A stretch of DNA of 64,000 bases from a virus (IMGVR_UViG_3300035655_000051:34232-98231); one strand, 5' to 3'; positions 13,160 to 55,389 are shown, counted from the stretch's first letter. Numbers and translations: made by a program. The notes: generated by a model not told the origin, from the sequence alone.

Positions 13160-13160
13160 A

Positions 13161-15109: not shown

Positions 15110-15123
15110 TCTAAATATCTCCT

Positions 15124-15324: not shown

Positions 15325-15333
15325 TCATGTTCC

Positions 15334-15567: not shown

Positions 15568-15569
15568 AT

Positions 15570-17933: not shown

Positions 17934-18206
17934 TTACAGTAACGACCGACAAACAAGACATTTTGCCGTGCCAACAAACATATCATCAGTCCAATGTTTA
18001 CTATGGTTGTCTTCTTCGATTCGGTAGTATTCTCCAACTTCAGCAATCGTCACAATTTTTCCAGCAAGTTTCATTCTTTCTTCTAATGACCACTTGACTG
18101 TTATAGTATATCCGGGATTGTTATTCCGATCTCGCATATGATACTCTTCGTATTGCACAAAATTATCGATTAAACACACCTTATCCCCAACTTTGTAACG
18201 AGCCAT
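17934..18206 (-). CDS. CKSLL-tail family member 1 (ends ...CLVCRSLL)
   Basis: YKVGDKV... N-terminal module shared with 20559, 20826, 21127, 22233 and 28934; conserved C-terminal tail. Confidence 0.65.
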   Translation of the reverse strand: MARYKVGDKVCLIDNFVQYEEYHMRDRNNNPGYTITVKWSLEERMKLAGKIVTIAEVGEYYRIEEDNHSKHWTDDMFVGTAKCLVCRSLL

Positions 18207-20278
18207 TAAATCACCACTTTCAGAACTCGCTCAGTAGCCCCCTGCACCTTAACAATGAAGGAATCATGCTTCGTCTCAGAGAAGCCAACGCCAGACAGCT
18301 GGTCATCTACCGACTGAACTGCCATCTGAGAACCGAGAGCCTCAAATACTCGCTTATGCTGTAGCAGTTCTGCCTTCAGGAATTCGTTGTAGAAACCATT
18401 GGGCTTTTCAGGATTGATACAATCCTTGAGCATGAAGAAGTAGTGACGGTTGCCATTACCAGTCTGCTCATCCCAATAGTTCGGAGAGTACATGGCCACA
18501 GAAACAGGCACAAACTGATTGGAGTTCACACCCCAGATCTCGCGGGTGCTAGTAGAACTGGGCAGCAGCTCTTTGATAGAGAACTTGCCATCCTTCAGCG
18601 TGACTTTTGCCACGGCGACATCCTGACCCTGATGCAGTGGCTTATCATAGTTAAACGAGTAGATGTTGCCGTCGAATTCAATCTCGGCACGGAAACCAGT
18701 TTTACCACCACGACTAGCAAAACATCTCACATAGAAGCTGTACTCGCCTTCCTTCATCTTTTTGATATCAGGCCATGTAATATTTTCGACCGCAGCTTTA
18801 CCCTGATTAGGACGAGTGATATCCACATCCAAGCGGCCATTAGTACGAGGATTCCAACAGTTGCCGAAGTAGATGTGATTCTTATCGGGTTCAATGCAAT
18901 GAGCATCCTCATCATTTGCATCGTACTCACCCGGCACATCGTTCCACTGAATCGAGAAACGCAGCACACCGTCCACTTTACCGCCAGCAGCCTTAACGTT
19001 TTCGCGAATATCACTGTCTGTCATATTACCGGTATACGCCCAACTGAAACCATTAGGCCACTTGAACATACTCGGCGCATTCTTATCCTGCGGAGCAATC
19101 AGAGACATCATATTCTTCTCGAAACGATTCTCCATGAATAGTTCCAGCCCAGTCGCAGTCGGCAACACATTTTTGATGAACTTGTCAATGCTGATTTCCT
19201 CTGCACGGTTAAACTTCTTGGGATCAATCGCAACAGTCTTAGCCATTGCCTCAAACGGATTTGTAGCACCAGCAATACGAGGAGCGGCATCACGGTTGCA
19301 GAACAGGATATTGTTTGCGGTGATATCGTCCAGAGTAGCAAACCGACGACCCAGACTGTTCATATAACCCAGCTCGGTGACAGTCTTCTGTGCATCTTCC
19401 AACATCTTCTTGGTGAAAATCGCCTTGGGACGCTTATAGTTTGCGGGAGCGACAACCTTCTCAAAAGCAGTCACAGCGGAATCCACATCCATGCCTTCGC
19501 TCAGATTGATAAGAAGGGCGCCGATAGCGGTGTTACGAATACGAAGCTGCGCCGCCGTAGCATATGTAGGAGCAAGCCATACAAAGGCAAGCTTTTCATT
19601 AACAGACAGCTTGTCATAATCAATCTTATCGTGCTTAAACTCCTTTACAGACCGCTCAAACTCCTTGCCGCGATACAGACTATTCTGAGCAATCAGCTCT
19701 AGCACAGTATCAACAGCCTCCATGGTTAGCTCTTCCAGAGAACGCTTAAACACGTTTGCGGAGTCACGCCACTGTGCCATCTTGGTAGCTACGTCATCTC
19801 CACTGGTAATAAAACGCTGCGGAATCTTTACTGCGAAATGATCCCAAGTATGTACATCCTTGTGGTTTTCATCGTACTCGTAGTTCATCTCGGTGCCGAA
19901 CATGTCCCCAGAACCGATCATATTGCGACTGACAAAGTACGGATTCACAATGGCGCGGCTCTTTACATAGGCGGCCAGTGCATCAACAACAGGCTGATAT
20001 TTGGCAGACTTTGCATCGAAATCCCAGATGGAAATCAAATTATAATTCTTGTCAAACGCCACCAACTTGCCGATATTCTTTACAAAACGGCGGCAGCAGG
20101 AACAATCGTACTCGCGCCGCTTACGGAACAGCTCATTCGTGCCAGCCGGGAAGCTGTCAAGATACAGATTGTACAGTTCATCCTCGTCAGCGTCAGTGAC
20201 AAACAGGGGATTCTCACTCTTCACCATCTCATTGAAGTGGTCCTGCAGCAGCGCACGAAATTTCTTGAAATCAGACAT
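18206..20278 (-). CDS. large hypothetical protein (690 aa)
   Basis: Uninterrupted protein-like ORF; no motif recognised by eye. Confidence 0.7.
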   Translation of the reverse strand: MSDFKKFRALLQDHFNEMVKSENPLFVTDADEDELYNLYLDSFPAGTNELFRKRREYDCSCCRRFVKNIGKLVAFDKNYNLISIWDFDAKSAKYQPVVDALAAYVKSRAIVNPYFVSRNMIGSGDMFGTEMNYEYDENHKDVHTWDHFAVKIPQRFITSGDDVATKMAQWRDSANVFKRSLEELTMEAVDTVLELIAQNSLYRGKEFERSVKEFKHDKIDYDKLSVNEKLAFVWLAPTYATAAQLRIRNTAIGALLINLSEGMDVDSAVTAFEKVVAPANYKRPKAIFTKKMLEDAQKTVTELGYMNSLGRRFATLDDITANNILFCNRDAAPRIAGATNPFEAMAKTVAIDPKKFNRAEEISIDKFIKNVLPTATGLELFMENRFEKNMMSLIAPQDKNAPSMFKWPNGFSWAYTGNMTDSDIRENVKAAGGKVDGVLRFSIQWNDVPGEYDANDEDAHCIEPDKNHIYFGNCWNPRTNGRLDVDITRPNQGKAAVENITWPDIKKMKEGEYSFYVRCFASRGGKTGFRAEIEFDGNIYSFNYDKPLHQGQDVAVAKVTLKDGKFSIKELLPSSTSTREIWGVNSNQFVPVSVAMYSPNYWDEQTGNGNRHYFFMLKDCINPEKPNGFYNEFLKAELLQHKRVFEALGSQMAVQSVDDQLSGVGFSETKHDSFIVKVQGATERVLKVVI

Positions 20279-20549
20279 TGTTATTATTCTCCTTTAATTT
20301 TTCAATTTTATTTGTAACTTCAAAACTATGCCAAACCCAACTGTATTTATCCGTCCATACCTCGCCAGTCGGTTCCCCGTCAACGATATCGGTCATTCTA
20401 TCAGCCCCGGGTAAATCTGCCATATTGAAAAGACATTCCTTTGTCTCTTCCTCAATAAATGCAGCCGCTTCTTCCTTTGAAGTAAAAAAATCAGGCTGAA
20501 AGATTTCGCCATCTGAACTGCATTCGATCACGCACCAGATTTCATTCAT
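20271..20549 (-). CDS. hypothetical acidic protein (92 aa)
   Basis: Protein-like ORF. Confidence 0.5.
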   Translation of the reverse strand: MNEIWCVIECSSDGEIFQPDFFTSKEEAAAFIEEETKECLFNMADLPGADRMTDIVDGEPTGEVWTDKYSWVWHSFEVTNKIEKLKENNNNV

Positions 20550-20558
20550 ACAATCACC

Positions 20559-20816
20559 TCACAACAATGATTTGCAGCAAAGCGGTTTAGCCGGCTCAAG
20601 CATTTCATCACTCCATGACCAAAGACCGAATCCTTCTAAAACATATGTAATGTAGCAATGTGAAACCGTTGTAATCTTACCAGCGTAACTACACATAGCA
20701 CTATTAACTCCGGGACTAAATCCCCATCTTGTTCCACTTACCATTTTGTAACTTCCGGACTCATGAAGATCTGGGCGGACTCTAACTTTGTCGCCGGGTT
20801 TATACTTGTATTCCAT
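20559..20816 (-). CDS. CKSLL-tail family member 2 (ends ...PAKPLCCKSLL)
   Basis: N-terminus MEYKYKPGDKVRVRPDL... and conserved tail. Confidence 0.65.
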   Translation of the reverse strand: MEYKYKPGDKVRVRPDLHESGSYKMVSGTRWGFSPGVNSAMCSYAGKITTVSHCYITYVLEGFGLWSWSDEMLEPAKPLCCKSLL

Positions 20817-20825
20817 TTCAAATCC

Positions 20826-21110
20826 TCACAACAAACTTTTGCAAATCAAGTTCTTTGGACGATCAAACATTTCATCTGTGTAATAATATGTTTTTCCATC
20901 CTCAAGAATTTTGTATCGACCGTTTGCCTTGTGAGAAATATGTACAATTTGTCCACGATAACCTACTTGCCCACGTCCACTCCATGACGTCTCAATGCCA
21001 TTGGCATCCGGTTCTGGACCAGATCTCATGTAATAAACTGTTCCAGATTGAAGATCTTCCCTGACGCGAATTGCTTCTCCATTTTTATATTTGTATTTGC
21101 TTTTCGACAC
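20826..21110 (-). CDS. CKSLL-tail family member 3 (ends ...RPKNLICKSLL)
   Basis: N-terminus KYKYKNGEAIRVREDL... and conserved tail. Confidence 0.65.
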   Translation of the reverse strand: MSKSKYKYKNGEAIRVREDLQSGTVYYMRSGPEPDANGIETSWSGRGQVGYRGQIVHISHKANGRYKILEDGKTYYYTDEMFDRPKNLICKSLL

Positions 21111-21126
21111 GTTCTTTTACCTCTTT

Positions 21127-21399
21127 TCATAATAGACTTTTACATGTAAACGGTTTTTTAGATTCTTCGAACATTTCATCTGTCCAATATCTGGAGCTTT
21201 CTTTTACCCTGTAACACATTACATTCCCACAACAATCATAACTCTCGATTGTTACTTGTTTCCCTCGAAGATTTTCCATAGAATGAATAGCAATAATGTC
21301 ATCATATGGAGTTTCTCCTGACAACATCTTGTATATTTTACGATCTGATAAATCTTTTCTAACCGTCACTTTATCTCCGGGTTTAAACTTATAGTTCAT
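21127..21399 (-). CDS. CKSLL-tail family member 4 (ends ...SKKPFTCKSLL)
   Basis: N-terminus MNYKFKPGDKVTVRKDL..., YWTDEMF, and conserved tail. Confidence 0.65.
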   Translation of the reverse strand: MNYKFKPGDKVTVRKDLSDRKIYKMLSGETPYDDIIAIHSMENLRGKQVTIESYDCCGNVMCYRVKESSRYWTDEMFEESKKPFTCKSLL

Positions 21400-21402
21400 A
21401 GT

Positions 21403-22218
21403 TTATTCTCCTTCAAACCAGTCGGAAACATTCTCAGCGACTTCATCAAGTTTTTCCTGATCCATTTTGATATATCTCATCGTAATACGTTGGTCGCTGT
21501 GATTAAATTTTGTTTGAAGAATATTCAAGATGTTCGCTCCATCAACTGTACCCTCGGCGCTTTGTAATGCTGCCATAGCATAAGTTTTACGCATACTATG
21601 AGTGGATAGCTCAATGTCCAAACCGCACGCCTTACCAGCTTTCTTCAAAAGGTTGCTCACCGATCTAACGTTAAGCTGTCCACCTTTCTTGCTCTGAAAA
21701 AGAAGCGTGTCACGGTCAATTCGAAAACTAATTGCCTGATAATATTCTCTTAAAGCTTCTTTTGCCATATGAGAAATTTTACACACGTTTCGCTTGCCGG
21801 TCTTCTGCTCGATCAGCTCAACATGATCTTTTACATGAGCGTTCTCATAATAAACATCAGCCGTTTTAAGCTTCAACAAATCGCCGCATCGAACACCAAT
21901 TGAACAGCCGAGAATAAACATCGTTTTGTTTCTAAGCGCGATTTCTTCAGATCCGTTAGACCCAAGGTACTCAACAATCTTCTTGAAATCTTCCTTTGAC
22001 TTGATAGGATCTGCCGGGGTTGGCTTTCTGCGCCCATCCTTGAGATAAAGACTATCCGTCCGACGAGGTTTCCGTGCTTTTTTCGTTGCAGTGGCACTTT
22101 TAACTGCCTGCTGAATAATTCGTTCAATATCGTCCTCTGTAACGACGAGTTTTGCAGGCCGATCTTCAACTGGGAAAAGAATGGTTTTTTGTGCCACTTT
22201 CTTTGCGGTTTCTGCCAT
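21403..22218 (-). CDS. tyrosine site-specific recombinase (phage integrase family)
   Basis: C-terminal catalytic region ...ELSTHSMRKTYAMAA...MRYIKMD has the R...HxxR...Y arrangement; 271 aa. Confidence 0.75.
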   Translation of the reverse strand: MAETAKKVAQKTILFPVEDRPAKLVVTEDDIERIIQQAVKSATATKKARKPRRTDSLYLKDGRRKPTPADPIKSKEDFKKIVEYLGSNGSEEIALRNKTMFILGCSIGVRCGDLLKLKTADVYYENAHVKDHVELIEQKTGKRNVCKISHMAKEALREYYQAISFRIDRDTLLFQSKKGGQLNVRSVSNLLKKAGKACGLDIELSTHSMRKTYAMAALQSAEGTVDGANILNILQTKFNHSDQRITMRYIKMDQEKLDEVAENVSDWFEGE

Positions 22219-22232
22219 TAAAATTCACTCCT

Positions 22233-22496
22233 TTACAAAAGACTTTTACATGTAAGTGGTTTTGGAGACTCGAACATCGTGTCAGTCCAATAATGGCTAT
22301 CCTCACAGAGCGTATAAACACCGCAGATTTGGCATTCGATTGTCATAAGTTGACCACGGTGTCTTTCCATATCTTTATTAACTCCCGGATCGCAGCCATA
22401 ACTTTCTCCGCTTTGCATTGGATATTCTGCGCCGGCTGTCAAGTCTTTCCGAATTCTTACTTTTTGTCCAATTTTATATTTGTAATCCATAATCAA
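22233..22496 (-). CDS. CKSLL-tail family member 5 (ends ...SPKPLTCKSLL)
   Basis: N-terminus DYKYKIGQKVRIRKDL..., HYWTDTMF, and conserved tail. Confidence 0.65.
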   Translation of the reverse strand: MIMDYKYKIGQKVRIRKDLTAGAEYPMQSGESYGCDPGVNKDMERHRGQLMTIECQICGVYTLCEDSHYWTDTMFESPKPLTCKSLL

Positions 22497-22771
22497 TCTC
22501 TTTTCTAAATTGTGAGTAACAGTTTGGCTGGAAGAACATTTGCGAGATAATTTGGAGGGATCTTTGATCCCGGAAGCATTGTCGAGTAAATGTTCTGATG
22601 GCCAATGAGTCGCAGTGATTGCAGCCGCGATCTCCAGCTCTGCTGGGATTAGGCTGCAGAACGGAGACTCCGCACTTGCGAACTAATTTGATCCATAGCT
22701 CAGGAGGGCGAGGCTGCCAACCTCAGGCAGCCCATGGAGCCCGTATGAGCGTGCTATGGTATTCTTCATAA

Positions 22772-22788
22772 CCGTCGGTCATCCGGCA
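22772..22788 (+). repeat. hairpin motif copy B (CGTCGGTCATCCGGCAG)
   Basis: 7-bp stem CUGUCGG/CCGGCAG with a 4-nt loop on the plus strand. Three copies in the window (22772, 24638, 36978). Confidence 0.5.
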
Positions 22789-22836
22789 GCTCGCGACGTA
22801 AAACGCCCGATATTCAAAAGAGATTACAATATATAA

Positions 22837-23175
22837 TTACTTGGATTCTTTGTCCTGTTTTCGCAGTTCATCAACAAGACATTCCAAACAGCTCTGTAGA
22901 GCGTCGTGTCCGGCCTCAAGCATTGCCTGATGAATATTCACTTCAAAATCACACAAGAGATCTGCACATAAGCTCATATCCTCTGCATCGATTTCTTTGA
23001 TGCCAAGCTCCTTGATTGCGCTTGCAACGTCGGAAGGCCCCCAATAGACCATTGCTCTGTGGTCGTCGATATCCAACAGGTCAACTGGACACCCGATGGA
23101 TTCCTCTACGACACTTGCCGCTTGATCGAGCAATTCAACTGGAGTGCCGCCATCTCTACACATCATTTCAATCAT
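22837..23175 (-). CDS. small acidic protein co-transcribed with the RT (112 aa)
   Basis: Its start overlaps the RT stop (ATGA); acidic and Cys-containing; no motif recognised. Confidence 0.5.
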   Translation of the reverse strand: MIEMMCRDGGTPVELLDQAASVVEESIGCPVDLLDIDDHRAMVYWGPSDVASAIKELGIKEIDAEDMSLCADLLCDFEVNIHQAMLEAGHDALQSCLECLVDELRKQDKESK

Positions 23176-24410
23176 TAGAAAACAACTCCTTCTTTTGGTT
23201 TTAAGTCAGCTTTGAGCATTGCCATCATATCAACATGATACTTTTCGTTGTACCGAGAAATCACCGTGTCGACCGATTCTTTTTCTACCATACGGTAGTA
23301 ATTCAGCCTGCCATTAAACTGCTGCAGGTCTTCAAGATCCCACGTTTTTCCTTCTTTCTTGCAGACGATGTAATTAGATGCCATCTTCTTAAAGTCCTTA
23401 AAATTGCGCCATCCGACTGTGATATCGTTATTGGCATTCCACATCAGACCGAGCATCCAGTTTTCGCTCGAATGCCGATTACCATAATGCGTTTTTTCTT
23501 CATTCAAAGTAAACGGAGCATTGATTGCATCCAACATCTCTTTGATGATATCCTGCATTTCCATCGGGTCAAAACTCAAATAGCAGCTGATGGTGATATC
23601 GTCTGCATATCTGGTGTATGTAAAAGTGCGAGAAATGCCGTCTTTCATGGTATATTTGTAAGAAAGCTTCTTATTTAACATATAATCAAACGGGATCATC
23701 ATAACGTTCGTGATCCACGGACTGATTGGCGTTCCCTGCGGAAGACCGCCGTTCAAGAAGCACAGGCGCATCGCTTTAGTCAGCTGGTTGTATCCATTTC
23801 GATCCTTCATAATGAGAGAAAACGGATAAATCTTGCTGAACATGCCGTAGATAAACTCAGGAGTGGAGCTCGGGAAGAATCCATGAAAGTCAAACTTGAC
23901 AGCCCAGTTGTTTTCATAGGTGACGATCTTTTCTTTCCCAGTCTCACGATCTTTTACTGTATATCTGTGTCCCGCCTGATGCTTTTTAATTGCACTCAGA
24001 GTGCCGCGCCCATTGATATATGCGTGTGCTGCCGTGTGATAATCAGCAATCATGAAACTTTTTAACAGCGTCCGCAACTCAACCAACGCATCGCTCAGTT
24101 CATTGTTCGGTGCATCAATTGGACGAACGCCACCAGTCTTCTTAGGAATTTCGAAGTGATAGTAATGCGTCGACAGGTCACGTACCGCTTCAAGACGGGC
24201 GTATTTCTGATTGAATTCCGTAAGCCGTGTAATCATATTGGTAACGTTTGTAATGGCTACGAGACGATCATTCAACCCATTACGCTGTACAGTTCGAGTA
24301 GAAGTTTCATCGCCAGCATATTTTAACTGGTTCACGTCAACGACTCCGCTAAGGATTTCATCAAACGTAATCTGCCTTGTTCTCGGCGGATTCCAATAAG
24401 TAACGTACAT
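23175..24410 (-). CDS. reverse transcriptase (retron/group-II-like, YADD type)
   Basis: RT motifs FEIPKKTGGVRPIDAP (1/2), LPQGTPISP (4), TYTRYADDITIS (5), FTLNEEKTHYG (6/7). 411 aa, no endonuclease domain. Confidence 0.85.
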   Translation of the reverse strand: MYVTYWNPPRTRQITFDEILSGVVDVNQLKYAGDETSTRTVQRNGLNDRLVAITNVTNMITRLTEFNQKYARLEAVRDLSTHYYHFEIPKKTGGVRPIDAPNNELSDALVELRTLLKSFMIADYHTAAHAYINGRGTLSAIKKHQAGHRYTVKDRETGKEKIVTYENNWAVKFDFHGFFPSSTPEFIYGMFSKIYPFSLIMKDRNGYNQLTKAMRLCFLNGGLPQGTPISPWITNVMMIPFDYMLNKKLSYKYTMKDGISRTFTYTRYADDITISCYLSFDPMEMQDIIKEMLDAINAPFTLNEEKTHYGNRHSSENWMLGLMWNANNDITVGWRNFKDFKKMASNYIVCKKEGKTWDLEDLQQFNGRLNYYRMVEKESVDTVISRYNEKYHVDMMAMLKADLKPKEGVVF

Positions 24411-24435
24411 ATGTTTACCTCTTCTAAATCGTGAT

Positions 24436-24679: not shown

Positions 24680-24702
24680 ATCACGATTTTTTTATTTATT
24701 CT

Positions 24703-25377
24703 TTATGCAGCCGTAACGTTAAAAGTGTACGGATTTGCAACGATCATTTTCTTCAAAGGTGCGATATTGGTCGCGAAATTGATAAAGTTCGTAACCGCCA
24801 AACAACACACGAAACGAACAGTCGGGGCGAGACCTTGAACGATGCCACATGCAGAAACCGGAGTGCCAGCCTGCGCATCTTCATGAGAGAAGTTCATAGA
24901 ATTCCATAAATTCTCTCGGTCTTTTTCCTTGCTCCAATCCGCTGCCCAGCACTGTGCATCATGGAATCCAGTGCGGACATCAAACACGCCCTTGATGTTC
25001 GGGTTGTACTTGTTCGCTTCCATGAACTGCTTGCGAATTTCGATGTTGTCGACCGCGAGGAACACATAACCGCGAATCATCTCGCCCTGCCAACCATTCG
25101 GCTTCAGAACGATTTCATCTTTGGCATCAGGATTGATGGCACAGATAATATCGCGAACCGCCTCGACTTTTGGAGCTTCAATATTGTTGGCGAAGAACAT
25201 CTGGTTGACGATATTCTTGCTTTCAACCTCGTCCATATCCCACAGCGTGAAATTCTTCAGACCATACCGTGCGAGAAGTTCCGCCACGGTAGAGCCAACC
25301 GAACCACAACCAATAATGTGGATCTGGCCGCTGATATCATCGGGGTTGAATACCATTTCAAGCTTACTCAGATTCAT
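24703..25377 (-). CDS. E1-like (ThiF/MoeB-family) ubiquitin-activating-type enzyme
   Basis: IHIIGCGSVGSTVAELLARYG (GxGxxG Rossmann), DMDEVESKNIVNQ and KVEAVRDIICAINP match the ThiF/E1 adenylation-domain pattern. Confidence 0.75.
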   Translation of the reverse strand: MNLSKLEMVFNPDDISGQIHIIGCGSVGSTVAELLARYGLKNFTLWDMDEVESKNIVNQMFFANNIEAPKVEAVRDIICAINPDAKDEIVLKPNGWQGEMIRGYVFLAVDNIEIRKQFMEANKYNPNIKGVFDVRTGFHDAQCWAADWSKEKDRENLWNSMNFSHEDAQAGTPVSACGIVQGLAPTVRFVCCLAVTNFINFATNIAPLKKMIVANPYTFNVTAA

Positions 25378-25392
25378 TTTGTAGTCCTTTCT

Positions 25393-26289
25393 TTAATTGT
25401 CATACGGAAAACAGCTGGAATTCCAGCACGTATCAAGATCTTCTGGATTCTCCTTGTAATAATTGACCAATGGATATCGAGTCTCAGACACTTCATTGAC
25501 TTTCGGAGCCGCTGCACCAGTTACCGTCTTGATTTGCGGCACTGGCGTTTGCGTGGCAACTGTTTGCGGGTACGTTTTTTGCGGCGTAACTGCTTTACCA
25601 TAGTAGGTGCCTGCTCCATAAGCTCCGTAATTTGCGACTGTGCTTGCGACATATACAGGGCGCTTTCGAACCGTTTTGTCTGCATCTTCGAGAAATCGAG
25701 TCGAGTCAAAATCTCCAACAGTAACCTTGACATCGGCTCCCTCATAGATGACATTGTCGGCCAGATCAATGACGCGAACATTGTACTGCCGCTTCTTGTT
25801 CCAGATCATAAAAATCTGATAACTCGTCGGCTTGAGTCCGTCAATGAATCGCCACTGATCCTCCATATCGCGGCTGCTCGGCGTTACACCGAAATCGACA
25901 TGGCTGTGTCCCTGAAATCTCAGGTTGCGAATCGTTTCAACAGGCAGCGCCTGAAACCACTTTGAAAATTCTTCCTGATCGGTGTCTACGGTGGTGCCAG
26001 TTACAGTCTGAGGATACAGCAGAATTTTGGTAATCTGAAAATGCGTCTTATCGATACGATTCACGATGCCGCGCCATGCAACCTCACAATCGAAGTGATC
26101 AATCAACGCAAACATCTGAGAATACGCTTCATAGGTGAAATTCACCTCGACAGCATCCTTCTTAACAGACGCAAAATTCTTCTTGTATGAGAAAGAATCC
26201 GTCTTAACCCTACCGGTCTTATACAGCTCCTGAACAAATTCACGTGCCATATCTGCTACAACCTGCTCCGTGATATTAATGGGTTTCAT
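25393..26289 (-). CDS. JAB/JAMM (MPN+) metalloprotease-domain protein
   Basis: QGHSHVDFGVTPSSRDMED matches the JAMM motif HxH-x7-S-xx-D; 298 aa with a Thr/Pro/Gln-rich C-terminal half. Confidence 0.65.
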   Translation of the reverse strand: MKPINITEQVVADMAREFVQELYKTGRVKTDSFSYKKNFASVKKDAVEVNFTYEAYSQMFALIDHFDCEVAWRGIVNRIDKTHFQITKILLYPQTVTGTTVDTDQEEFSKWFQALPVETIRNLRFQGHSHVDFGVTPSSRDMEDQWRFIDGLKPTSYQIFMIWNKKRQYNVRVIDLADNVIYEGADVKVTVGDFDSTRFLEDADKTVRKRPVYVASTVANYGAYGAGTYYGKAVTPQKTYPQTVATQTPVPQIKTVTGAAAPKVNEVSETRYPLVNYYKENPEDLDTCWNSSCFPYDN

Positions 26290-27793
26290 CTTCAGCGACC
26301 TCCTTCTTTACTGCTTCTGCTGGTGCTGCTGCGTCCTTTTCGTTCTTGAGAATGTCAAACACTTCTGCCACCGTGTACAGATTACCCGCGTTATCCTCGA
26401 TACACTTGCGAGTTTTGATATAGGATTCGTCAAACAAATCATACATGAGATCGCTTACAACGGTGCCATCCTTCCAGTTGATGGATGCGCTTGAACCAAT
26501 AATCGTAGTCAGGACGCCAATGTAATCGTGTTTTACACTAAGCGCATTGAGCATCTCTCGATAACCGCTATAGCACGCATGCCGATCGATATGAGGCTGA
26601 CGAATACGATCCTTCATCAAATCAGAGCGACCTTGCATATCAGAACCACGAACTGCTTCAACCTTGCAGCTGGAATACAGTCGCCATTCACAGTAGGTGC
26701 GAATAGCGAACCGATGTGTCTTCCAAATTGACACAAAGAAATCTTTCGTAAGTTCCGTGTCATACGGCGAACGCTGAAAAATGTAGCTTCGACTATTTGC
26801 CTTTTTCTCAACACAAGTGCGGAACTCGCCCTCATCACAATCGTTCAGCGTGCCAACATAACCAATAGAGATTCGATCACTGTTGGAGTCAAGATAAACC
26901 AGCGTCTTGCAGCGCTTCAGGAAATTAACAATTGCAGCTTCGTCATCCTCAGTGCAGCAAGCACGGTCCATGATCATAGTGAGTTTAAATTGAGCTTCTT
27001 CAAGACTTTTATTTCTCTCACGGATATCGTTATATTTACTTTCAATATCATCTTGAATACTACGAATGTATCGTTCCTGCCGAGAAATTTCGTTGGCGTA
27101 ATCCTTCTTGCAAAATCCCTTCAGAGCACCACGCAACTTCTTACCATAGAAATCGCCGGTCTCGTATGCCTTCTCCATGTATTTGCCGAAAGCTTTGTTG
27201 TCCTGATCATAAAGAGTACGCAGCATCGCCTTCTCATCATCAGTCAGCGGCTGATCAGCGAAAAACCACGGCATCAGGTTTGGCAAACAACTCGCTGCCA
27301 TGTGCATGGCCTGAATCAGATTCTTCTTAGCACAAACAACGACAACACCCTGCTTCTTTTCATTCTGATATACATAGACATTGCCATTCTTATCGATGTA
27401 CTTAGCTGCGACATCCATGATCTTCCAACCGGCAGCTTCGTAATCCGCATTGTACTTCTTGAACTCAGAAATAATGGCGTCTGCTTTCTTATCGTCGATC
27501 GTCTGAAACATGATGCCAAATTTCATCTGATTGAAAGCGTTATCTTCATGAACGAACATGTCCTTAGTGAACTTTTCGTCGTCGCCCATATAGAAATGTT
27601 GGCAATCAATAATTGACTGAATGCGATGTCCTCCCGAAATAGAATGCTTGATACGGTCATCATTGATCAGTACGCGCAGTACGGACAACATCACATTATC
27701 GTTGAGATTGCTATTGTCGCAATTCAGAATCAACGGATATGCTTCGTCGCAATCTCTCGAACCGATCTTGCTGGAATAAGCTGTGAAAGCCAT
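26276..27793 (-). CDS. large hypothetical protein (505 aa) in the E1/JAB operon
   Basis: Protein-like ORF overlapping the JAB gene start; function unknown (could be an E2-like or target component). Confidence 0.6.
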   Translation of the reverse strand: MAFTAYSSKIGSRDCDEAYPLILNCDNSNLNDNVMLSVLRVLINDDRIKHSISGGHRIQSIIDCQHFYMGDDEKFTKDMFVHEDNAFNQMKFGIMFQTIDDKKADAIISEFKKYNADYEAAGWKIMDVAAKYIDKNGNVYVYQNEKKQGVVVVCAKKNLIQAMHMAASCLPNLMPWFFADQPLTDDEKAMLRTLYDQDNKAFGKYMEKAYETGDFYGKKLRGALKGFCKKDYANEISRQERYIRSIQDDIESKYNDIRERNKSLEEAQFKLTMIMDRACCTEDDEAAIVNFLKRCKTLVYLDSNSDRISIGYVGTLNDCDEGEFRTCVEKKANSRSYIFQRSPYDTELTKDFFVSIWKTHRFAIRTYCEWRLYSSCKVEAVRGSDMQGRSDLMKDRIRQPHIDRHACYSGYREMLNALSVKHDYIGVLTTIIGSSASINWKDGTVVSDLMYDLFDESYIKTRKCIEDNAGNLYTVAEVFDILKNEKDAAAPAEAVKKEVAEDETH

Positions 27794-27936
27794 ATGTATT
27801 TCCTCCTATTTAATTTCAAAGCCCAGATACTGGACACATATAAGGCAGACTTTAACCGGCCTGCCAGCGGCTGCAGTGTTTAGAATATCGTTGTAACCAA
27901 TAACGAATTCAGCGGTTTATTTTCAAATTAGTGCGA

Positions 27937-28176
27937 TTAGTTCATACCAGTCGCATTGTCGTGCTTGGAGATGGAGGCCAGATACACCTCATCGCCGACG
28001 CCCAGCTCAGACAGCGGAGTGTTCAGCTGTGCCACCGTCAGAATGCAGCCATCCAGAGTGCTCTGGCCATTGGCGTAGTTCACGCCATGCTTTGCGAACA
28101 CGTCCTTCGGGGTCATGCTGGTAGCAACAACGTCCTCGATCTTGTCGTCATTAGTGGTAACCCAAATCTTAATCAT
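27937..28176 (-). CDS. small protein (79 aa), candidate beta-grasp/ubiquitin-like component
   Basis: MIKIWVTT... small protein at the head of the E1/JAB operon; ends ...NATGMN. Ubl assignment is speculative. Confidence 0.4.
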   Translation of the reverse strand: MIKIWVTTNDDKIEDVVATSMTPKDVFAKHGVNYANGQSTLDGCILTVAQLNTPLSELGVGDEVYLASISKHDNATGMN

Positions 28177-28273: not shown

Positions 28274-28696
28274 TTACTCGGCGTCTGCGTCCTCACCATC
28301 GATAGTGATTGCAGCATTCATGGCAGCCTCATCAGCGTTGATGGACTCCATAGCGGCTGCGATCTGCTCCTCGATCTTGGTGCCGCGAACAATGGTCAGA
28401 CCAATCATGTCGCGAACCCACTCCTTGATCTCTGCCTCAGACTTCATGCCAGCAGGAACAGGACGGCTCAAAACGGCAACCTTATCGCCAGTGACTGCAT
28501 CCTGAGCAAAAGCCACGCCGAACTTGCTGATATCATCCTTAGAAGCAACAGCAATGGCGCTCACAAGCTTCTTCTCCTTGCCCTCGCCCTCATACAGCTT
28601 CAAAGCCTCGGGACGGAACTTCTCGACCTTCTTCAGGGTAGCGACATCGTATGCGGAAGTGACGAACAGGTTGTTGAACTTAACGATTGCTTTCAT
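28274..28696 (-). CDS. hypothetical protein (140 aa), probably highly expressed
   Basis: Start moved to the ATG after RBS AAAGGAGAAAAC (MKAIVKF...); acidic C-terminus. Confidence 0.55.
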   Translation of the reverse strand: MKAIVKFNNLFVTSAYDVATLKKVEKFRPEALKLYEGEGKEKKLVSAIAVASKDDISKFGVAFAQDAVTGDKVAVLSRPVPAGMKSEAEIKEWVRDMIGLTIVRGTKIEEQIAAAMESINADEAAMNAAITIDGEDADAE

Positions 28697-28933: not shown

Positions 28934-29158
28934 TCACAGAAGTGATTTGCAGGTAAGTTTTACTGGACACGGCTCCCAAAATCTTTGCGGGCACCAAGTA
29001 ATCGTTGTTTCTCCACTTGTAAATGGGTCTAACATCTCTACAACTGGGTAAGCTCCATCAAATCTTACGATGCGCCCTCTTTTGTTGCGATTCACATCGT
29101 TTTCAGACACTTCATTGCCGATTCTAACTAATTGCCCAACATGTAAATCGTATTTCAT
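28934..29158 (-). CDS. CKSLL-tail family member 6 (ends ...CPVKLTCKSLL)
   Basis: Start taken at MKYDLHVGQLVRIGNE (ATGA overlap with the upstream gene); conserved tail. Confidence 0.6.
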   Translation of the reverse strand: MKYDLHVGQLVRIGNEVSENDVNRNKRGRIVRFDGAYPVVEMLDPFTSGETTITWCPQRFWEPCPVKLTCKSLL

Positions 29159-52408: not shown

Positions 52409-53181
52409 ATATGACTGACATTATTTTATCTGTCGAAAACAATGAAGCAGTGGTATCCAGCCGCCAGATTGCTGAAAATTTTGGAAAACGGCATAACGAT
52501 GTGATGGAAGCAATTCGTAGTATTTTAGCTACGGAAAATTCCGTAACTAAATTTTTTCACGAGTCAACGTTTGAATATAGAGGCCAAACTTTTCCGATGT
52601 ATTTAATGAATCGTGACGGATTTAGTTTACTCGTTATGGGGTTTACTGGTAAATCAGCGCTGGAATGGAAAGTCAAATACATCACAGCATTCAATGAGAT
52701 GGAGAAGCAGCTTACCCAACCAAAGCAGTTATCCAAAACAGAGATTTTATCTCAGGCACTTTTGATTGCTCATGAAGAACTTGAAGAAAGCAAAAAGCAA
52801 ATCACAGCCTTAACGGCAAAAAATGCAGAGCTTATCCCAAAAGCAGAATTCGCAGACGCAATTAGCGCGTCGAAGGCAAGTGTTCTTATTGGTAGTTTCG
52901 CTATTGTGCTAAAGCAGGATGGTTGCGACATTGGCCAAAACCGCCTGTTCAGATATTTACGTGAAAACGGATATCTCATCTCGCAAAAGGGCGATAGATA
53001 CAACACGCCAACACAATGGGCTATGGAGATGGGATTGTTCGAGGTTGAGACTACCCTTTTTACCACAGCTTATGGTAATGCAAAAATTTCTTACACCACA
53101 CGAATCACTCCAAAAGGACAGCAACATCTCATTAATAAACTTGTAAAAAAGTGCGATTCGAATTTGATGGATGTCGTATGA
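52405..53181 (+). CDS. phage regulatory protein Rha N-domain fused to antirepressor KilA-C-type C-domain
   Basis: N-terminus ...VVSSRQIAENFGKRHNDVMEAIRSI... (Rha pattern); C-terminal half ...GSFAIVLKQDGCDIGQNRLFRYLRENGYLISQ... (ANT/KilA-C pattern). Confidence 0.65.
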   Translation: MNMTDIILSVENNEAVVSSRQIAENFGKRHNDVMEAIRSILATENSVTKFFHESTFEYRGQTFPMYLMNRDGFSLLVMGFTGKSALEWKVKYITAFNEMEKQLTQPKQLSKTEILSQALLIAHEELEESKKQITALTAKNAELIPKAEFADAISASKASVLIGSFAIVLKQDGCDIGQNRLFRYLRENGYLISQKGDRYNTPTQWAMEMGLFEVETTLFTTAYGNAKISYTTRITPKGQQHLINKLVKKCDSNLMDVV

Positions 53182-53663
53182 TAGAGGCTTTACAAAATAT
53201 GGAAAAATTTATCGCCCCACGCGGCAGTGGCCGCACCTATCAAATATGTAAATACGCAATTGAAAATGACTGTGACATTATTGTGCCAACGATAAATCAG
53301 TTTAACTACATTGTTGACACAATACAAAAAATATGTTCTGCCTCTGATGGAGAATGGATTTATTGTGGCATTGATAAGCCTGCAGCCACGGTTAACGTTG
53401 CAGTATGGAATGGTCAGCGGCAAATAAAAATTTATGACGCTGGAATTCTTACTATTGCATATTTTATGCATAGTACAAAACCAGTTGTGATCGATGATAT
53501 TGATAAATGTATGGACTACATTGTTGGTAATCGCATGATAGCCGCCTGCTCTATAGCTACGTATGACCCGTCTGATGTCGCATTTCACCCTGAAATCACA
53601 GATGCAGATGATACGGCCATAGGAAGACCAACGCTGCAACTAACCTGTAGGAGTTTGCTATGA
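53151..53663 (+). CDS. CKSLL-tail family member 7 (170 aa, ends ...LQLTCRSLL)
   Basis: Unrelated N-terminal region with the conserved C-terminal tail. Confidence 0.6.
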   Translation: MRFEFDGCRMIEALQNMEKFIAPRGSGRTYQICKYAIENDCDIIVPTINQFNYIVDTIQKICSASDGEWIYCGIDKPAATVNVAVWNGQRQIKIYDAGILTIAYFMHSTKPVVIDDIDKCMDYIVGNRMIAACSIATYDPSDVAFHPEITDADDTAIGRPTLQLTCRSLL

Positions 53664-54004
53664 CAACAGATATTTTTGGAATGACTAATTACAAGAAGAA
53701 TGAGAAAGAAATATTAGAACTCGCAAGTAAGGAAATCTGTGAACAGCTTAGCGAAGAGCTTAATAAAAAAATAGATTCTATTGTAATTCATGTCGATGTA
53801 GACCGCAGATACATACATTATGATCCTCCGTCATCTTTTATGATAAATTCAATGGAGATCTTTAAAGTTGATATCATGTCCGGGTCGCATTTGGAGACAA
53901 TCGAGGGGAAGGCTGCAGAAAGTATTTATAAGCGATATCTTGAATTGGTTGGCAAATATGCGTTGCAATTCAAAAAACCGTTTACCTGTAAGAGCCTATT
54001 ATAA
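53660..54004 (+). CDS. CKSLL-tail family member 8 (114 aa, ends ...FKKPFTCKSLL)
   Basis: Conserved tail; ATGA overlap with the upstream gene. Confidence 0.6.
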   Translation: MTTDIFGMTNYKKNEKEILELASKEICEQLSEELNKKIDSIVIHVDVDRRYIHYDPPSSFMINSMEIFKVDIMSGSHLETIEGKAAESIYKRYLELVGKYALQFKKPFTCKSLL

Positions 54005-54030: not shown

Positions 54031-54294
54031 ATGACACGAGAAGAAATTATAAAAGAAGCGATGGGTTACGCACAAATTGGACGCTTCGGTTACTACAAAG
54101 GAACTTACGATGAGATGTTAGCTGTTTTAAAATGTTTTGCTGATACTGATGCAGAATACGTGAATTTTCAAGATATGCGATGGCACTTAGATGAGAAAAA
54201 CGGAAGACTCTATTATGAACGCTTGTTTGATCAATGGGAGCCAAAACCAACGCCATGGTATCAAAAGCCATTTACCTGTAGGAGTTTATTATGA
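54031..54294 (+). CDS. CKSLL-tail family member 9 (87 aa, ends ...YQKPFTCRSLL)
   Basis: Conserved tail. Confidence 0.6.
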   Translation: MTREEIIKEAMGYAQIGRFGYYKGTYDEMLAVLKCFADTDAEYVNFQDMRWHLDEKNGRLYYERLFDQWEPKPTPWYQKPFTCRSLL

Positions 54295-54503: not shown

Positions 54504-54710
54504 ATGAGCGATGTAGCGACACGACTTGCGAAAGAGTTTGATCAGCTTAATGATGTGGATTATTGCAGACTTGCCAATAAAGATGGCATTTTAGATTTGT
54601 TCCATCCTATTGAACTTGACTATACATGGACTTGGGACCATGTCGTAAAAATCAAAGCACCATGGTATGAACGGAATAAAAAGAATCTAGTATGCCACAG
54701 TTTATTATAA
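54504..54710 (+). CDS. CKSLL-tail family member 10 (68 aa, ends ...NKKNLVCHSLL)
   Basis: Variant tail (His in place of Lys/Arg). Confidence 0.55.
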   Translation: MSDVATRLAKEFDQLNDVDYCRLANKDGILDLFHPIELDYTWTWDHVVKIKAPWYERNKKNLVCHSLL

Positions 54711-54741: not shown

Positions 54742-55152
54742 ATGAGAGTATTATTCGTAAAACCAGAAAACTACCAAGCAGTATGTAACTGGTATGACAG
54801 ATTAAAAGAAGTAAAAAATCATCCAAAGACAACTGTAATATGTCAGAGCCCAGAAGAGTTCCGCGCACAGTTCGACAAAGATAAATTTGGAGTCAGATAT
54901 ACTACTTTCTATTTCGATGAAGAATTTGGAATGATCAACACTGTAAAATGTTTCAAAGAATTTGTGAGACTATATGGCGATGAGGATGCGCGTTATATAT
55001 CTGCAACAATGAAAATGAGAACCATCAACATTGACCGATTATTATGGGCTGGTGATTTCAATGTATTTAAAGGATTTTGTATTGAGCCCGACTGTATTGA
55101 TGATGTTATCAGAAGCGCGAAAAGACCGTTGTCATGTAAGAGTCTGTTGTAA
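54742..55152 (+). CDS. CKSLL-tail family member 11 (136 aa, ends ...AKRPLSCKSLL)
   Basis: Conserved tail. Confidence 0.6.
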   Translation: MRVLFVKPENYQAVCNWYDRLKEVKNHPKTTVICQSPEEFRAQFDKDKFGVRYTTFYFDEEFGMINTVKCFKEFVRLYGDEDARYISATMKMRTINIDRLLWAGDFNVFKGFCIEPDCIDDVIRSAKRPLSCKSLL

Positions 55153-55167: not shown

Positions 55168-55389
55168 ATGGATGTTATTGACTTAGATCTTATTGGGAAT
55201 CCAGAGAACCCTTATCGTTATTGGATATCAAACGATTTAGCAAAAAATGCAACCATTACTATTCCAAAAGAACAGCCTGTAAAAGAATCAGCATGGGATA
55301 GAATAAAAACCATAGAAGAACAAATCGCAGATATTTACGACCAATTAGATAAACTAAAGAAGCCACTTCGGTGCAAATCGCTTCTATAA
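55168..55389 (+). CDS. CKSLL-tail family member 12 (73 aa, ends ...LKKPLRCKSLL)
   Basis: Conserved tail. Confidence 0.6.
   Translation: MDVIDLDLIGNPENPYRYWISNDLAKNATITIPKEQPVKESAWDRIKTIEEQIADIYDQLDKLKKPLRCKSLL

What the first reader, a model, noticed from the sequence alone, without database searches (positions are those of the whole stretch)
17934..22496. Tandem array of paralogous small proteins that all end in an invariant ...KP[LF]xCKSLL tail
Five genes (17934, 20559, 20826, 21127, 22233) plus one at 28934 encode 85-98 aa proteins with a shared N-terminal module ([KY]YK.GDKV.VR.DL ... YWTDEMF). All end in P-x-x-C-[KR]-S-L-L-COOH right before the stop. At the DNA level the tail differs at synonymous sites: AAACCGTTTACCTGTAAGAGCCTATTATAA at 53973-54002 versus AAACCACTTACATGTAAAAGTCTTTTGTAA on the minus strand at 22233-22262. 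So selection is on the peptide, not on a DNA element. The last three residues S-L-L-COOH fit a class-I PDZ-ligand or ssrA-like hydrophobic C-terminal degron. I know of no described phage family with this tail. A tyrosine recombinase is embedded in the array.
Basis: seen in the sequence. Interest (0 to 1): 0.8.

Follow-up and report, generated by a model that had tools for sequence, protein, structure and literature searches.

The report
Shared C-terminal tag on phage proteins
About fifteen small, otherwise unrelated proteins of a common 150-kb human-gut phage all end in the same short flexible peptide (…C-x-S-L-L), whose phage-specific versions change together with a phage-encoded ubiquitin-like conjugation gene cluster, so the peptide most likely plugs these proteins into that machinery.

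Summary
Twelve ORFs in the window (six on each strand, in two main clusters about 30 kb apart) end in C-[KRH]-S-L-L-stop, against 0.015 expected by chance. Ser is encoded by both AGY and TCN and Leu by all six codons, so selection is on the peptide. Five proteins share an SH3-like, Mind-bomb-repeat-like domain; the others are unrelated. AlphaFold models the tail as a disordered extension. In related about 150-kb gut phages the tail has four versions: K (K-P-[LF]-x-C-[KR]-S-L-L), E (N-E-C-x-C-E-S-L-L), F (Φ-x-F-x-S-L-L) and N (…C-K-N-L-L). Each genome uses one version at both loci (43/43 contigs), although neighbouring genes recombine freely between versions. Within the ±10 kb scanned around the two tail clusters, only one block shares no alleles between the K and E versions: tyrosine recombinase, retron-type RT, E1 (ThiF), JAB peptidase, an E2/RWD-like 505-aa protein and a putative Ubl. 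Best reading (about 0.45): a C-terminal β-strand docking motif linking small binding proteins to this phage-encoded ubiquitin-like machinery. Thiol chemistry, a DNA element and a conserved host degron are disfavoured. The partner and the function are inferred, not shown. No prior description was found.

The parts
17934..18206 (-). Tail gene 1 (90 aa, SH3-like module, ...AKCLVCRSLL*)
   Evidence: ORF and tail. Module alignment. phrog_7488 hit. The gene lies between p127 and p690, whose alleles are shared between tail versions.
20559..20816 (-). Tail gene 2 (85 aa, SH3-like module, ...AKPLCCKSLL*)
   Evidence: A GAGG-type SD-like sequence lies upstream of the start.
20826..21110 (-). Tail gene 3 (94 aa, GTG start, SH3-like module, ...PKNLICKSLL*)
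21127..21399 (-). Tail gene 4 (90 aa, SH3-like module, ...KKPFTCKSLL*); the modelled member
22233..22490 (-). Tail gene 5 (85 aa, SH3-like module, ...PKPLTCKSLL*)
28934..29158 (-). Tail gene 6 (74 aa from the ATG with an SD-like sequence; different N-terminal part; ...VKLTCKSLL*)
   Evidence: No PHROG or Pfam hit.
53178..53663 (+). Tail gene 7 (161 aa; weak phrog_1828 match to the body only; ...LQLTCRSLL*)
53660..54004 (+). Tail gene 8 (114 aa, ...KKPFTCKSLL*); its start overlaps the stop of gene 7
54031..54294 (+). Tail gene 9 (87 aa, ...QKPFTCRSLL*)
54504..54710 (+). Tail gene 10 (about 68 aa, start uncertain, ...KKNLVCHSLL*)
54742..55152 (+). Tail gene 11 (136 aa, ...KRPLSCKSLL*)
   Evidence: Orthologues carry a K-type or an E-type tail according to the phage. 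One variant ends RPLSFKSLL.
55168..55389 (+). Tail gene 12 (73 aa, ...KKPLRCKSLL*)
21403..22218 (-). Tyrosine recombinase inside the array; part of the version-specific block
   Evidence: Pfam Phage_integrase 1.6e-17. XerA/C/D-like. Maximum K-E identity 64%.
22837..23175 (-). p112, acidic 112-aa protein translationally coupled to the RT; version-specific
   Evidence: Maximum K-E identity 41%, 39 fixed columns. K1=K2≠E site excess, 27 against 9 and 15.
23175..24410 (-). Retron-type reverse transcriptase; version-specific
   Evidence: Pfam RVT_1. NCBIfam retron St85 family. PADLOC RT_II-A 2e-37.
24703..25377 (-). E1-like adenylating enzyme (ThiF family, 224 aa); version-specific
   Evidence: Pfam ThiF 7e-21. 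PADLOC CBASS E1-E2 1.6e-15. Conserved GCGSVGS and SACG motifs.
25393..26289 (-). JAB/JAMM metallopeptidase (298 aa); version-specific
   Evidence: Invariant E...HSH...S..D motif across 41 distinct sequences. Weak PADLOC JAB hit. 70 fixed K/E columns.
26276..27793 (-). p505: two alpha/beta domains joined by a long helix; RWD/UBC (E2)-like; best candidate reader of the tail
27937..28176 (-). Putative ubiquitin-like protein (79 aa) with a conserved ...K[HM]DNA end followed by 1-4 variable residues
   Evidence: Alignment. Profile against PDB: the top two hits are SAMP2 (E 0.21) and PF1061 (E 0.3), both below threshold.
28274..28696 (-). p155/p140, unknown protein at the edge of the block; version-specific
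   Evidence: Maximum K-E identity 67%. K1=K2≠E excess, 28 against 15 and 12.

Best explanation
The tail is a short linear docking motif. It is a flexible C-terminal beta-strand-like peptide: hydrophobic(-7)-x-[Cys/Phe](-5)-x-[Ser/Asn](-3)-Leu-Leu-COOH. It tags about 14-19 small early or accessory proteins per genome as clients of one phage-encoded partner. These proteins are SH3/Mind-bomb-repeat-like binding domains plus several unrelated folds. The partner is most likely part of the gene block embedded in the array, which looks like a Bil/CBASS-Cap2-type ubiquitin-like conjugation set: putative Ubl, E2/RWD-like p505, JAB peptidase and E1 ThiF. A retron-type RT and a tyrosine recombinase sit beside it. 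In the preferred version the tagged proteins act as interchangeable substrate receptors or substrates. The variable domain binds a host or phage target, and the common tail docks on the E2-like protein (or on the Ubl) by beta-strand addition with recognition of the free carboxylate. SHOWN: the tail exists, is selected as a peptide, is always terminal, is modelled as disordered, occurs on unrelated domains, comes in genome-wide coherent versions, and co-varies with the block. INFERRED: which protein reads it, and what happens after docking.
For: (1) The tail is strictly terminal, with 12 observed against 0.015 expected. SLL is by far the commonest C-terminal tripeptide in 84 related loci, 522 against 82 for the next. 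(2) Selection is on the peptide: Ser uses both AGY and TCN, Leu uses all six codons, and all 50 full-length orthologues (63-99% identity) keep C[KR]SLL, with one truncated 80-aa relative lacking the tail. (3) AF2 gives a folded domain (pLDDT above 90) and a disordered tail (pLDDT 49). (4) The same tail sits on unrelated families. Of the 150 best hits to the domain profile, 46 of 52 single-domain proteins carry the tail. None of 97 longer, mostly multi-domain, proteins does. This fits a tail that replaces covalent fusion. (5) Four versions (K, E, F, N) change in concert across all paralogues, including Cys to Phe and Ser to Asn. (6) The version is identical at two loci about 30 kb apart in 43 of 43 contigs. 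The F-type case was predicted and then confirmed. Genes beside and between the tail genes (p690, p127, AAA, PhoH, p849) have 94-100% identical alleles in both versions. Locus-2 alleles are shuffled among island classes within a version but never across versions. (7) Within ±10 kb of the two tail loci, only the island genes lack any shared K/E allele (maximum 41-74% identity). The K1=K2≠E site excess is clearest for p505, p155 and p112. (8) The island contains an E1, an intact JAMM peptidase, an RWD/UBC-like protein and a likely Ubl. (9) Precedents: Cap2 and Cap3 read a disordered, clade-specific C-terminal tail of a non-Ubl protein (bioRxiv 10.1101/2022.03.31.486616). From my own knowledge, the closest fold match, the MIB1 REP domain, is the substrate-binding domain of a ubiquitin ligase (fold match).
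Confidence: 0.45

Rival explanations
1. The tail proteins are themselves the conjugated moiety. The E1-like ThiF adenylates their C-terminal Leu, and they are ligated to targets and released by the JAB peptidase. This is what CBASS Cap2 and Cap3 do with the C-terminal tail of the cGAS-like cyclase.
For: The tail is disordered, strictly terminal and clade-specific, next to an E1 and a JAB that best match the CBASS E1-E2 and JAB models. Co-variation with the island is shown.
Against: All known E1 substrates end in Gly or Ala, whereas here the end is Leu-Leu. The island has its own Ubl-like protein with a different, conserved ...DNA end plus a trimmable extension. That protein is the natural E1/JAB substrate. 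One adenylation site is unlikely to accept both ends (inference). ThiF shows little grouping by version.
Confidence: 0.12
2. The tail is a C-terminal degron or PDZ ligand. A host protease (ClpXP, Lon, or a CtpA/Prc-type tail-specific protease) reads it, which gives the tagged early proteins a short life.
For: S-L-L-COOH fits the class-I PDZ pattern [S/T]-x-hydrophobic-COOH. It is a non-polar C-terminus on a disordered tail. The Leu-Leu end is common to all versions.
Against: Phages of different versions share 94-100% identical alleles of many genes. They therefore recombine and probably infect the same hosts, yet their tails differ in charge, at Cys/Phe and at Ser/Asn, and never mix. A conserved host protease would not impose this. 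No protease or PDZ gene was seen in the roughly 90 kb examined.
Confidence: 0.12
3. The tail is a targeting peptide that loads the small proteins into the capsid or another virion compartment for co-injection. It would be analogous to the T4 capsid-targeting sequence or to encapsulin cargo peptides, with the versions co-evolving with a structural protein.
For: Diverse small proteins, in hypervariable arrays, share a terminal peptide, like the T4 internal-protein loci (my own knowledge). The unscanned part of the genome probably holds the structural genes, so a version-specific structural partner cannot be excluded.
Against: The tail genes lie among early or accessory genes (antirepressor, PhoH, NAD salvage, RT), not in a structural module. 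The one tail-fibre-like gene seen (997-1728) was not tested for version association. Within ±10 kb of the tail loci, the version-specific genes are the island genes.
Confidence: 0.08
4. The tail works through cysteine chemistry. Examples would be an AIP-like five-residue thiolactone ring (Cys is fifth from the end, as in staphylococcal AIPs), a lanthionine, or metal binding.
For: Cys lies exactly at -5 in K, E and N tails. A second Cys lies at -7 in E tails. An adenylating enzyme that could activate the carboxylate lies nearby.
Against: All F-type tails have Phe at -5: 12 or more at locus 1 and 7 at locus 2. A K-type orthologue has RPLSFKSLL. Tyr replaces the -7 Cys in some E tails. No AgrB, LanM or YcaO-type enzyme was found.
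Confidence: 0.03
5. The shared end reflects a DNA or RNA element read in frame. It could be a site for the embedded tyrosine recombinase (shufflon- or integron-like), a ribosome-binding site or a terminator.
For: A tyrosine recombinase sits in the array. In a few junctions the [KR]-S codons AGG AGT form the SD sequence of the next gene.
Against: Synonymous positions are saturated: Ser is split between AGY and TCN, and all Leu codons are used. No DNA motif is conserved downstream of the stops. The SD overlap occurs only in some junctions.
Confidence: 0.02

Closest known systems
CBASS type II: C-terminal tail of the cGAS-like cyclase, read by Cap2 (E1-E2) and Cap3 (JAB)
   Same: A disordered C-terminal tail on a non-ubiquitin protein has a conserved extreme end. 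The end differs between clades. It is read with high specificity by an adjacent E1-type enzyme and a JAB peptidase. The window's ThiF and JAB best match these PADLOC models.
   Different: The CBASS tails end in Gly or Ala and there is one client per operon. Here the end is Leu-Leu, there are about 15 clients per genome, a separate Ubl-like gene is present, and the system is phage-encoded.
Bil (BilABCD) bacterial ubiquitin-like conjugation operons
   Different: Bil is a host defence system whose Ubl ends in Gly. Here the Ubl-like protein ends in ...DNA. The E2-like protein is 505 aa with an extra domain and a long helix (predicted coiled coil). The set sits in a phage beside a retron-type RT. 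No family of tagged client proteins has been described for Bil.
Families of substrate receptors sharing a docking motif for one ligase (F-box or SOCS-box proteins; poxvirus ankyrin proteins with a C-terminal PRANC/F-box-like end)
   Same: There are many paralogous genes with a variable binding domain and a short conserved element that docks on a common enzyme. The arrays are hypervariable (my own knowledge; analogy only).
   Different: Those motifs are folded 40-50-residue helical domains that use host SCF ligases. Here the element is a 7-9-residue terminal peptide and the presumed ligase is phage-encoded.
C-terminal beta-strand-addition motifs: class-I PDZ ligands, LIR/AIM (Atg8-binding) and SIM (SUMO-binding) motifs
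   Same: These are short alternating hydrophobic peptides, often flanked by charge. S-L-L-COOH fits [S/T]-x-hydrophobic-COOH. F-x-S-L fits [W/F/Y]-x-x-[L/I/V].
   Different: No PDZ domain was found. Cys, not an aromatic residue, occupies the LIR anchor position in most tails. The Ubl-like protein does not group by tail version.
T4 capsid-targeting sequence on internal proteins
   Same: Unrelated small proteins in hypervariable loci share one terminal peptide (my own knowledge).
   Different: The T4 signal is N-terminal and is cleaved by the prohead protease. There is no evidence here for packaging or cleavage.
Mind bomb REP / SH3_15 repeat and SPbeta YorP (for the N-terminal module)
   Different: The window proteins themselves do not reach any Pfam threshold. 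They are single modules with the added tail.

Membership tests
Class-I PDZ ligand | C-terminal [S/T]-x-hydrophobic-COOH | tested here: met
   S-L-L followed by a stop in all 12 window genes. N-type relatives have N-L-L, which breaks the pattern.
Class-I PDZ ligand | A PDZ-domain receptor that reads it | tested here: inconclusive
   No PDZ domain was found among the window proteins scanned. The host proteome and about 60 kb of the phage genome were not examined.
ssrA-like / ClpX C-motif-1 degron | Non-polar ...L-A-A-COOH-like end read by the conserved host ClpX | tested here: not met
   The end is S-L-L or N-L-L. The flanks differ between versions and co-vary with phage genes, which a conserved host reader would not impose.
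CBASS type II Cap2/Cap3 client tail | Disordered C-terminal tail with a conserved extreme end | tested here: met
   AF2 tail pLDDT 49. End conserved in all 50 full-length orthologues, with one truncated 80-aa relative lacking the tail.
CBASS type II Cap2/Cap3 client tail | Terminal Gly or Ala that fits the E1 adenylation site | tested here: not met
   The terminal residue is Leu, rarely Ile.
CBASS type II Cap2/Cap3 client tail | Adjacent E1(-E2) and JAB genes, with no separate Ubl | tested here: inconclusive
   E1 and JAB are present, but a separate Ubl-like gene is also present.
Bil-type Ubl conjugation operon (for the island) | E1 adenylating enzyme | tested here: met
   Pfam ThiF 7e-21 (cut-off 28.1 bits, score 74.8).
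Bil-type Ubl conjugation operon (for the island) | JAB/JAMM peptidase with an intact E...HxH...S..D motif | tested here: met
   The motif is invariant in 41 distinct sequences. The HMM support is only weak.
Bil-type Ubl conjugation operon (for the island) | E2 (UBC fold with a catalytic Cys) | tested here: inconclusive
Bil-type Ubl conjugation operon (for the island) | Beta-grasp Ubl with a reactive C-terminal Gly | tested here: inconclusive
   The profile's top PDB hits are SAMP2 and PF1061, at E 0.2-0.3. The conserved end is ...DNA, not Gly. No structure was predicted.
AgrD / AIP thiolactone peptides | Invariant Cys five residues from the mature C-terminus, plus AgrB and a cleaved C-terminal recognition tail | tested here: not met
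   Phe replaces Cys in F-type tails and in P0222. A stop follows directly. No AgrB was found.
Shufflon or integron-type recombination sites | Conserved DNA core repeat at each cassette boundary | tested here: not met
   329 distinct tail DNAs with saturated synonymous sites.
T4-type capsid-targeting sequence | N-terminal peptide cleaved by the prohead protease; proteins found in the virion | not testable with these tools
   The tail is C-terminal. Packaging needs virion proteomics.
SH3_15 (Mind bomb repeat) domain, for the module | Match to the family model or fold | tested here: inconclusive

The most novel reading that the evidence does not exclude
A bacteriophage encodes its own ubiquitin-like conjugation system (Ubl, E1, E2-like, JAB). 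It steers that system with a repertoire of about 15-20 interchangeable adaptor or client proteins. Each has a small variable binding domain (SH3/Mind-bomb-repeat-like or another fold) and a common 7-9-residue C-terminal docking peptide. The peptide and its reader have diverged into at least four orthogonal specificities within one recombining phage population. This would be a viral counterpart of F-box-type substrate-receptor families, built on a terminal short linear motif.
Probability: 0.25. Interest if true: 0.9.

Novelty: new variant of a known kind. Interest (0 to 1): 0.8.

Why it matters
If the tail is the address label of a phage-encoded ubiquitin-like system, it would show three things. 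First, phages, and not only their hosts, would use Ubl conjugation. Second, target choice could be delegated to a fast-evolving family of small tagged adaptors. Third, reader and tag could split into orthogonal versions within one gene pool. The motif also gives a practical handle. It identifies the client set by sequence alone (about 15 genes per genome and hundreds of variants in gut viromes). It also allows direct tests by peptide pull-downs and by swapping versions. Even if the partner proves to be something else, a strictly terminal, concertedly evolving peptide shared by unrelated proteins of a very common gut phage lineage (at least 598 IMG/VR contigs with a homologue of its 690-aa marker protein) has, as far as I could find, not been described.

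Tried and rejected
- **Related loci from the mixed paralogue alignment.** I used neighbouring conserved proteins as anchors instead.
- **Cultured phages.** tblastn of the module against 50,697 phage records found only tail-less homologues in Enterococcus and Brevibacillus phages. In Brevibacillus phage Sundance the module is the N-terminal half of a 165-aa protein.
- **Literature.** Full-text search for the motif strings and for phage-encoded Ubl/JAB/ThiF systems returned nothing relevant.
- **Thiolactone or Cys chemistry.** Considered because Cys is fifth from the end, as in AIPs. Dropped after F-type tails and a K-type C-to-F variant were found.
- **DNA element or recombinase site.** Rejected on codon diversity.
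- **SD-overlap explanation.** It holds only for some junctions.
- **Electrostatic complementarity between tail charge and p505.** No asymmetry: 29 against 35 columns.
- **AAA ATPase, p127, p690, PhoH and p849 as readers of the version-specific part.** Rejected, because their alleles are shared between versions.
- **A second block with no shared K/E alleles (window 1768-5826: SLT transglycosylase, MrpR-like recombinase domain, MazF-like toxin, p209).** For the three proteins present in all K sub-lineages, these are as far from each other as from E. So this looks like lineage-specific hypervariability rather than linkage to the tail version. The 209-aa protein, absent from K2, could not be tested this way.
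- **Foldseek on p505.** No significant match. The AFDB library was unavailable.
- **Host assignment.** Only a 4.4-kb contig binned into an 'uncultured Peptococcaceae' MAG.

Full report
**1. What is in the window**

The window has 43.5% G+C. It is part of a large phage genome. Near-identical proteins lie on contigs of 145-155 kb. The only related GenBank phage records are unannotated human-faecal scaffolds. The 690-aa neighbour protein p690 (DUF8224, phrog_1735) has at least 598 matching stretches in IMG/VR (597 confirmed as relatives by tblastn). It also has 54-56% identical homologues in about 155-kb Bacillus phages. Antirepressor matches point to a Firmicutes host. The only genome-collection hit is a 4.4-kb contig binned into an 'uncultured Peptococcaceae' MAG.

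**2. The observation**

- Twelve ORFs end in C-[KRH]-S-L-L followed directly by a stop.
  - Minus-strand stops: 17934, 20559, 20826, 21127, 22233, 28934.
  - Plus-strand ends: 53663, 54004, 54294, 54710, 55152, 55389.
- C[KRH]SLL never occurs elsewhere in the six-frame translation. Two hundred shuffles give 0.015 terminal and 0.56 total occurrences.
- Most of the genes have an SD-like sequence at the right distance from the start.
- At the DNA level the five core codons are saturated with synonymous differences. In the window Ser is TCG, TCA, AGT or AGC. In 329 distinct tail DNAs from relatives Ser is AGY 144 times and TCN 185 times, Leu uses all six codons, and stops are TGA 192, TAA 137 and TAG 0.
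Selection is on the peptide.

**3. What carries the tail**

- The five genes at 17934-22490 share a module (33-52% identity). It matches the N-terminal half of phrog_7488, without the tail.
- AlphaFold2 gives a compact beta domain for residues 1-80 (pLDDT above 90) and a disordered tail at 81-90 (pLDDT 49).
- A profile search of 1.84 billion representative proteins finds 2,510 relatives. Among the best 150, 46 of 52 proteins of up to 125 aa (essentially all single-module) end in [C/F]-x-[S/T/N/Q/G]-L-[L/I]. None of 97 longer, mostly multi-module, proteins does. Several of the long ones reach the Pfam SH3_15 threshold.
- The other seven window proteins have different N-terminal parts. They gave no hit or only weak hits to the body.
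- The tail is thus an add-on to unrelated small domains.

**4. Versions of the tail**

In ±10-kb loci around conserved anchors from 80 or more related contigs, the tail comes in phage-specific versions:

| Version | Motif | Where seen |
|---|---|---|
| K | K-[PQS]-[LF]-x-C-[KRH]-S-L-L | this window |
| E | [NDST]-E-[CY]-x-C-[ED]-S-L-L | most relatives |
| F | [GP]-hydrophobic-x-F-x-S-L-L | one 150-kb contig |
| N | P-F-x-C-[KRN]-N-L-L | another 145-kb contig |

- A K-type orthologue with RPLSFKSLL also exists.
- What is common to all versions is hydrophobic(-7)-x-[C/F](-5)-x-[S/N](-3)-L-L-COOH. This alternation is that of a beta strand with a free carboxylate.
- The Phe variants argue against thiol chemistry.

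**5. Coherence within a genome**

- Of 162 loci with at least three tails, 158 are pure. The four exceptions are spurious ORFs or one hybrid, NKCVCRSLL.
- In 42 contigs for which both tail loci were retrieved, the version is the same at both: 14 K/K, 28 E/E, none mixed.
- For the F-type contig I predicted F-type tails at the second locus. I then found seven.
- Orthologous genes carry different tails in different phages. So tails change in concert rather than by gene replacement.
- The neighbouring genes are mosaic.
  - p690 and p127 lie between tail genes. AAA, NAMPT, PhoH and p849 lie beside the clusters (p849 is about 1 kb from the second cluster).
  - All of these have alleles 94-100% identical in K and E phages, with no fixed differences.
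  - There are 22 allele-class combinations among the 42 contigs.
- Second-locus alleles are shuffled among different island classes within a version, but never across versions.
- Caveat: the number of independent lineages is small. There are about eight island/second-locus combinations, all concordant, which I estimate at roughly P = 0.01 under free association.

**6. What co-varies with the version**

- Within ±10 kb of either tail locus, only one block apart from the tail genes themselves has no allele shared between K and E: window 21403-28741.

| Gene | Maximum K-E identity |
|---|---|
| Tyrosine recombinase | 64% |
| p112 | 41% |
| Retron-type RT | 67% |
| ThiF | 74% |
| JAB | 53% |
| p505 | 46% (103 fixed columns) |
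| Ubl-like | 47% |
| p155 | 67% |

- Two deeply diverged K sub-lineages allow a site-pattern test, counting K1=K2≠E against the two alternatives.
  - The excess is clearest for p505 (72 against 39 and 42), p155 (28 against 15 and 12) and p112 (27 against 9 and 15).
  - It is weak for JAB, ThiF and the recombinase.
  - It is absent for the RT and the Ubl-like protein.
- Extending the scan to about 90 kb revealed another hypervariable block (window 1768-5826) without shared K/E alleles. Its genes are an SLT transglycosylase, an MrpR-like recombinase domain, a MazF-like toxin and a 209-aa unknown.
  - For the three of these proteins present in all K sub-lineages, the sub-lineages are as far from each other as from E.
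  - I read this as lineage-specific hypervariability rather than linkage to the version.
  - The 209-aa protein, absent from K2, could not be tested this way.
- About 60 kb of the genome was not reached.

**7. What the block is**

- ThiF is a Pfam-level E1-type adenylating enzyme (7e-21). Its best PADLOC matches are the E1 part of CBASS Cap2.
- The 298-aa protein keeps an invariant JAMM motif, E...HSH...S..D.
- The 79-aa protein has a conserved ...K[HM]DNA end followed by 1-4 variable residues. This is the pattern of a Ubl that a JAB peptidase trims (compare). Its profile's two best PDB hits are the Ubls SAMP2 and PF1061, though only at E 0.2-0.3.
- p505 has homologues only in this phage lineage.
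  - Its AF2 model (pLDDT 84) shows two alpha/beta domains joined by a long helix.
  - An invariant QPHID...C407 follows the four-strand sheet of the C-terminal domain, where E2 enzymes carry HPN...C.
  - Foldseek found nothing significant, so the E2 assignment is probable, not proven.
- The RT is retron-type. A 292-nt non-coding gap lies upstream of it.

**8. Interpretation**

- The data fit a short linear docking motif that marks a set of small proteins as clients of one phage-encoded reader located in the co-varying block. Step 5 (coherence) and step 6 (association) are shown.
- I favour docking on the E2/RWD-like p505, or on the Ubl, by beta-strand addition. The tagged proteins would then be substrate receptors or substrates of Ubl conjugation. 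Four points support this.
  - The closest fold of the module is the substrate-binding domain of a ubiquitin ligase.
  - In the longer, mostly multi-module, relatives the tail is absent.
  - CBASS provides a precedent for E1 and JAB enzymes reading a clade-specific disordered C-terminal tail of a non-Ubl protein.
- Direct activation of the tail by the E1 is less likely. The end is Leu-Leu and a dedicated Ubl-like substrate exists.
- A conserved host protease or PDZ reader does not explain orthogonal versions among phages that exchange genes.
- Capsid targeting cannot be excluded without proteomics and the rest of the genome.
- Counter-observations:
  - L055 lacks the recombinase, RT, E1, JAB and half of p505 yet keeps intact tail genes.
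  - L074 and L080 belong to the tail-less sister lineage. They carry four E-type tail genes that probably came in with the p690-p127 segment.

**9. Novelty**

No Pfam, PHROG, NCBIfam or PADLOC model covers the tail. No cultured phage in the collection has it. The literature searches found no description. The concept of a shared terminal docking peptide is known. This motif, its concerted versions and its link to a phage-borne Ubl/E1/E2-like/JAB block appear to be new.

Noticed in passing
window 21403-28741: A phage-borne gene block combines a tyrosine recombinase, a retron-type reverse transcriptase with a small coupled ORF and a 292-nt non-coding gap upstream (24411-24702), an E1 (ThiF), a JAB peptidase, an E2/RWD-like 505-aa protein and a putative Ubl ending in ...DNA plus 1-4 residues. 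It looks like a Bil/CBASS-Cap2-type conjugation set carried by a phage.
   Followed up: partly
window 42384-42474 (-): Match to the Rfam Twister-P5 ribozyme, 46.5 bits against a gathering score of 37.6.
   Followed up: no
window 179-1764 and 30379-34916 (-): Twelve tRNA genes lie in two clusters, including three tRNA-Leu and two tRNA-Gly.
   Followed up: no
window about 10257-16397; L004 16518-19818: A NAD-salvage block: nicotinamide phosphoribosyltransferase (13631-15109), Macro domain, NAD synthase and isochorismatase/nicotinamidase. Its alleles are 93-98% identical across tail versions.
   Followed up: no
window 1768-5826: A second hypervariable block holds an SLT lytic transglycosylase, a 356-aa protein with an MrpR-like recombinase core-binding domain, a MazF/PemK-like toxin and a 209-aa unknown. 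Alleles are only 30-80% identical even between phages with the same island.
   Followed up: partly
window 18206-20278: The 690-aa protein (DUF8224, phrog_1735) is conserved at 54-56% identity in Bacillus Herelleviridae-like phages. It matches 556 phage records, including Salmonella, Klebsiella and Caulobacter phages, and its function is unknown.
   Followed up: no
all tail genes (window and loci): None of 329 distinct tail genes uses TAG as its stop (TGA 192, TAA 137). TAG is also rare in long window ORFs, 2 of 46.
   Followed up: no
L055 8826-9497; L074 and L080 12068-13204: One contig has a natural deletion of the recombinase, RT, E1, JAB and the C-terminal half of p505, yet keeps seven tail genes. 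Two contigs of the tail-less sister lineage carry four E-type tail genes between p690 and p127.
   Followed up: partly
L118 (K-type locus 2): One gene ends in NKCVCRSLL. This is an E-type skeleton (C-x-C) with Lys in place of the Glu, and it sits in a K-type genome. It may be a tail caught in conversion between versions.
   Followed up: no
window 53655-53663 and similar junctions: In some junctions the tail codons TGT AGG AGT form the Shine-Dalgarno sequence of the next gene, and the stop overlaps the next start (CTATGA).
   Followed up: partly
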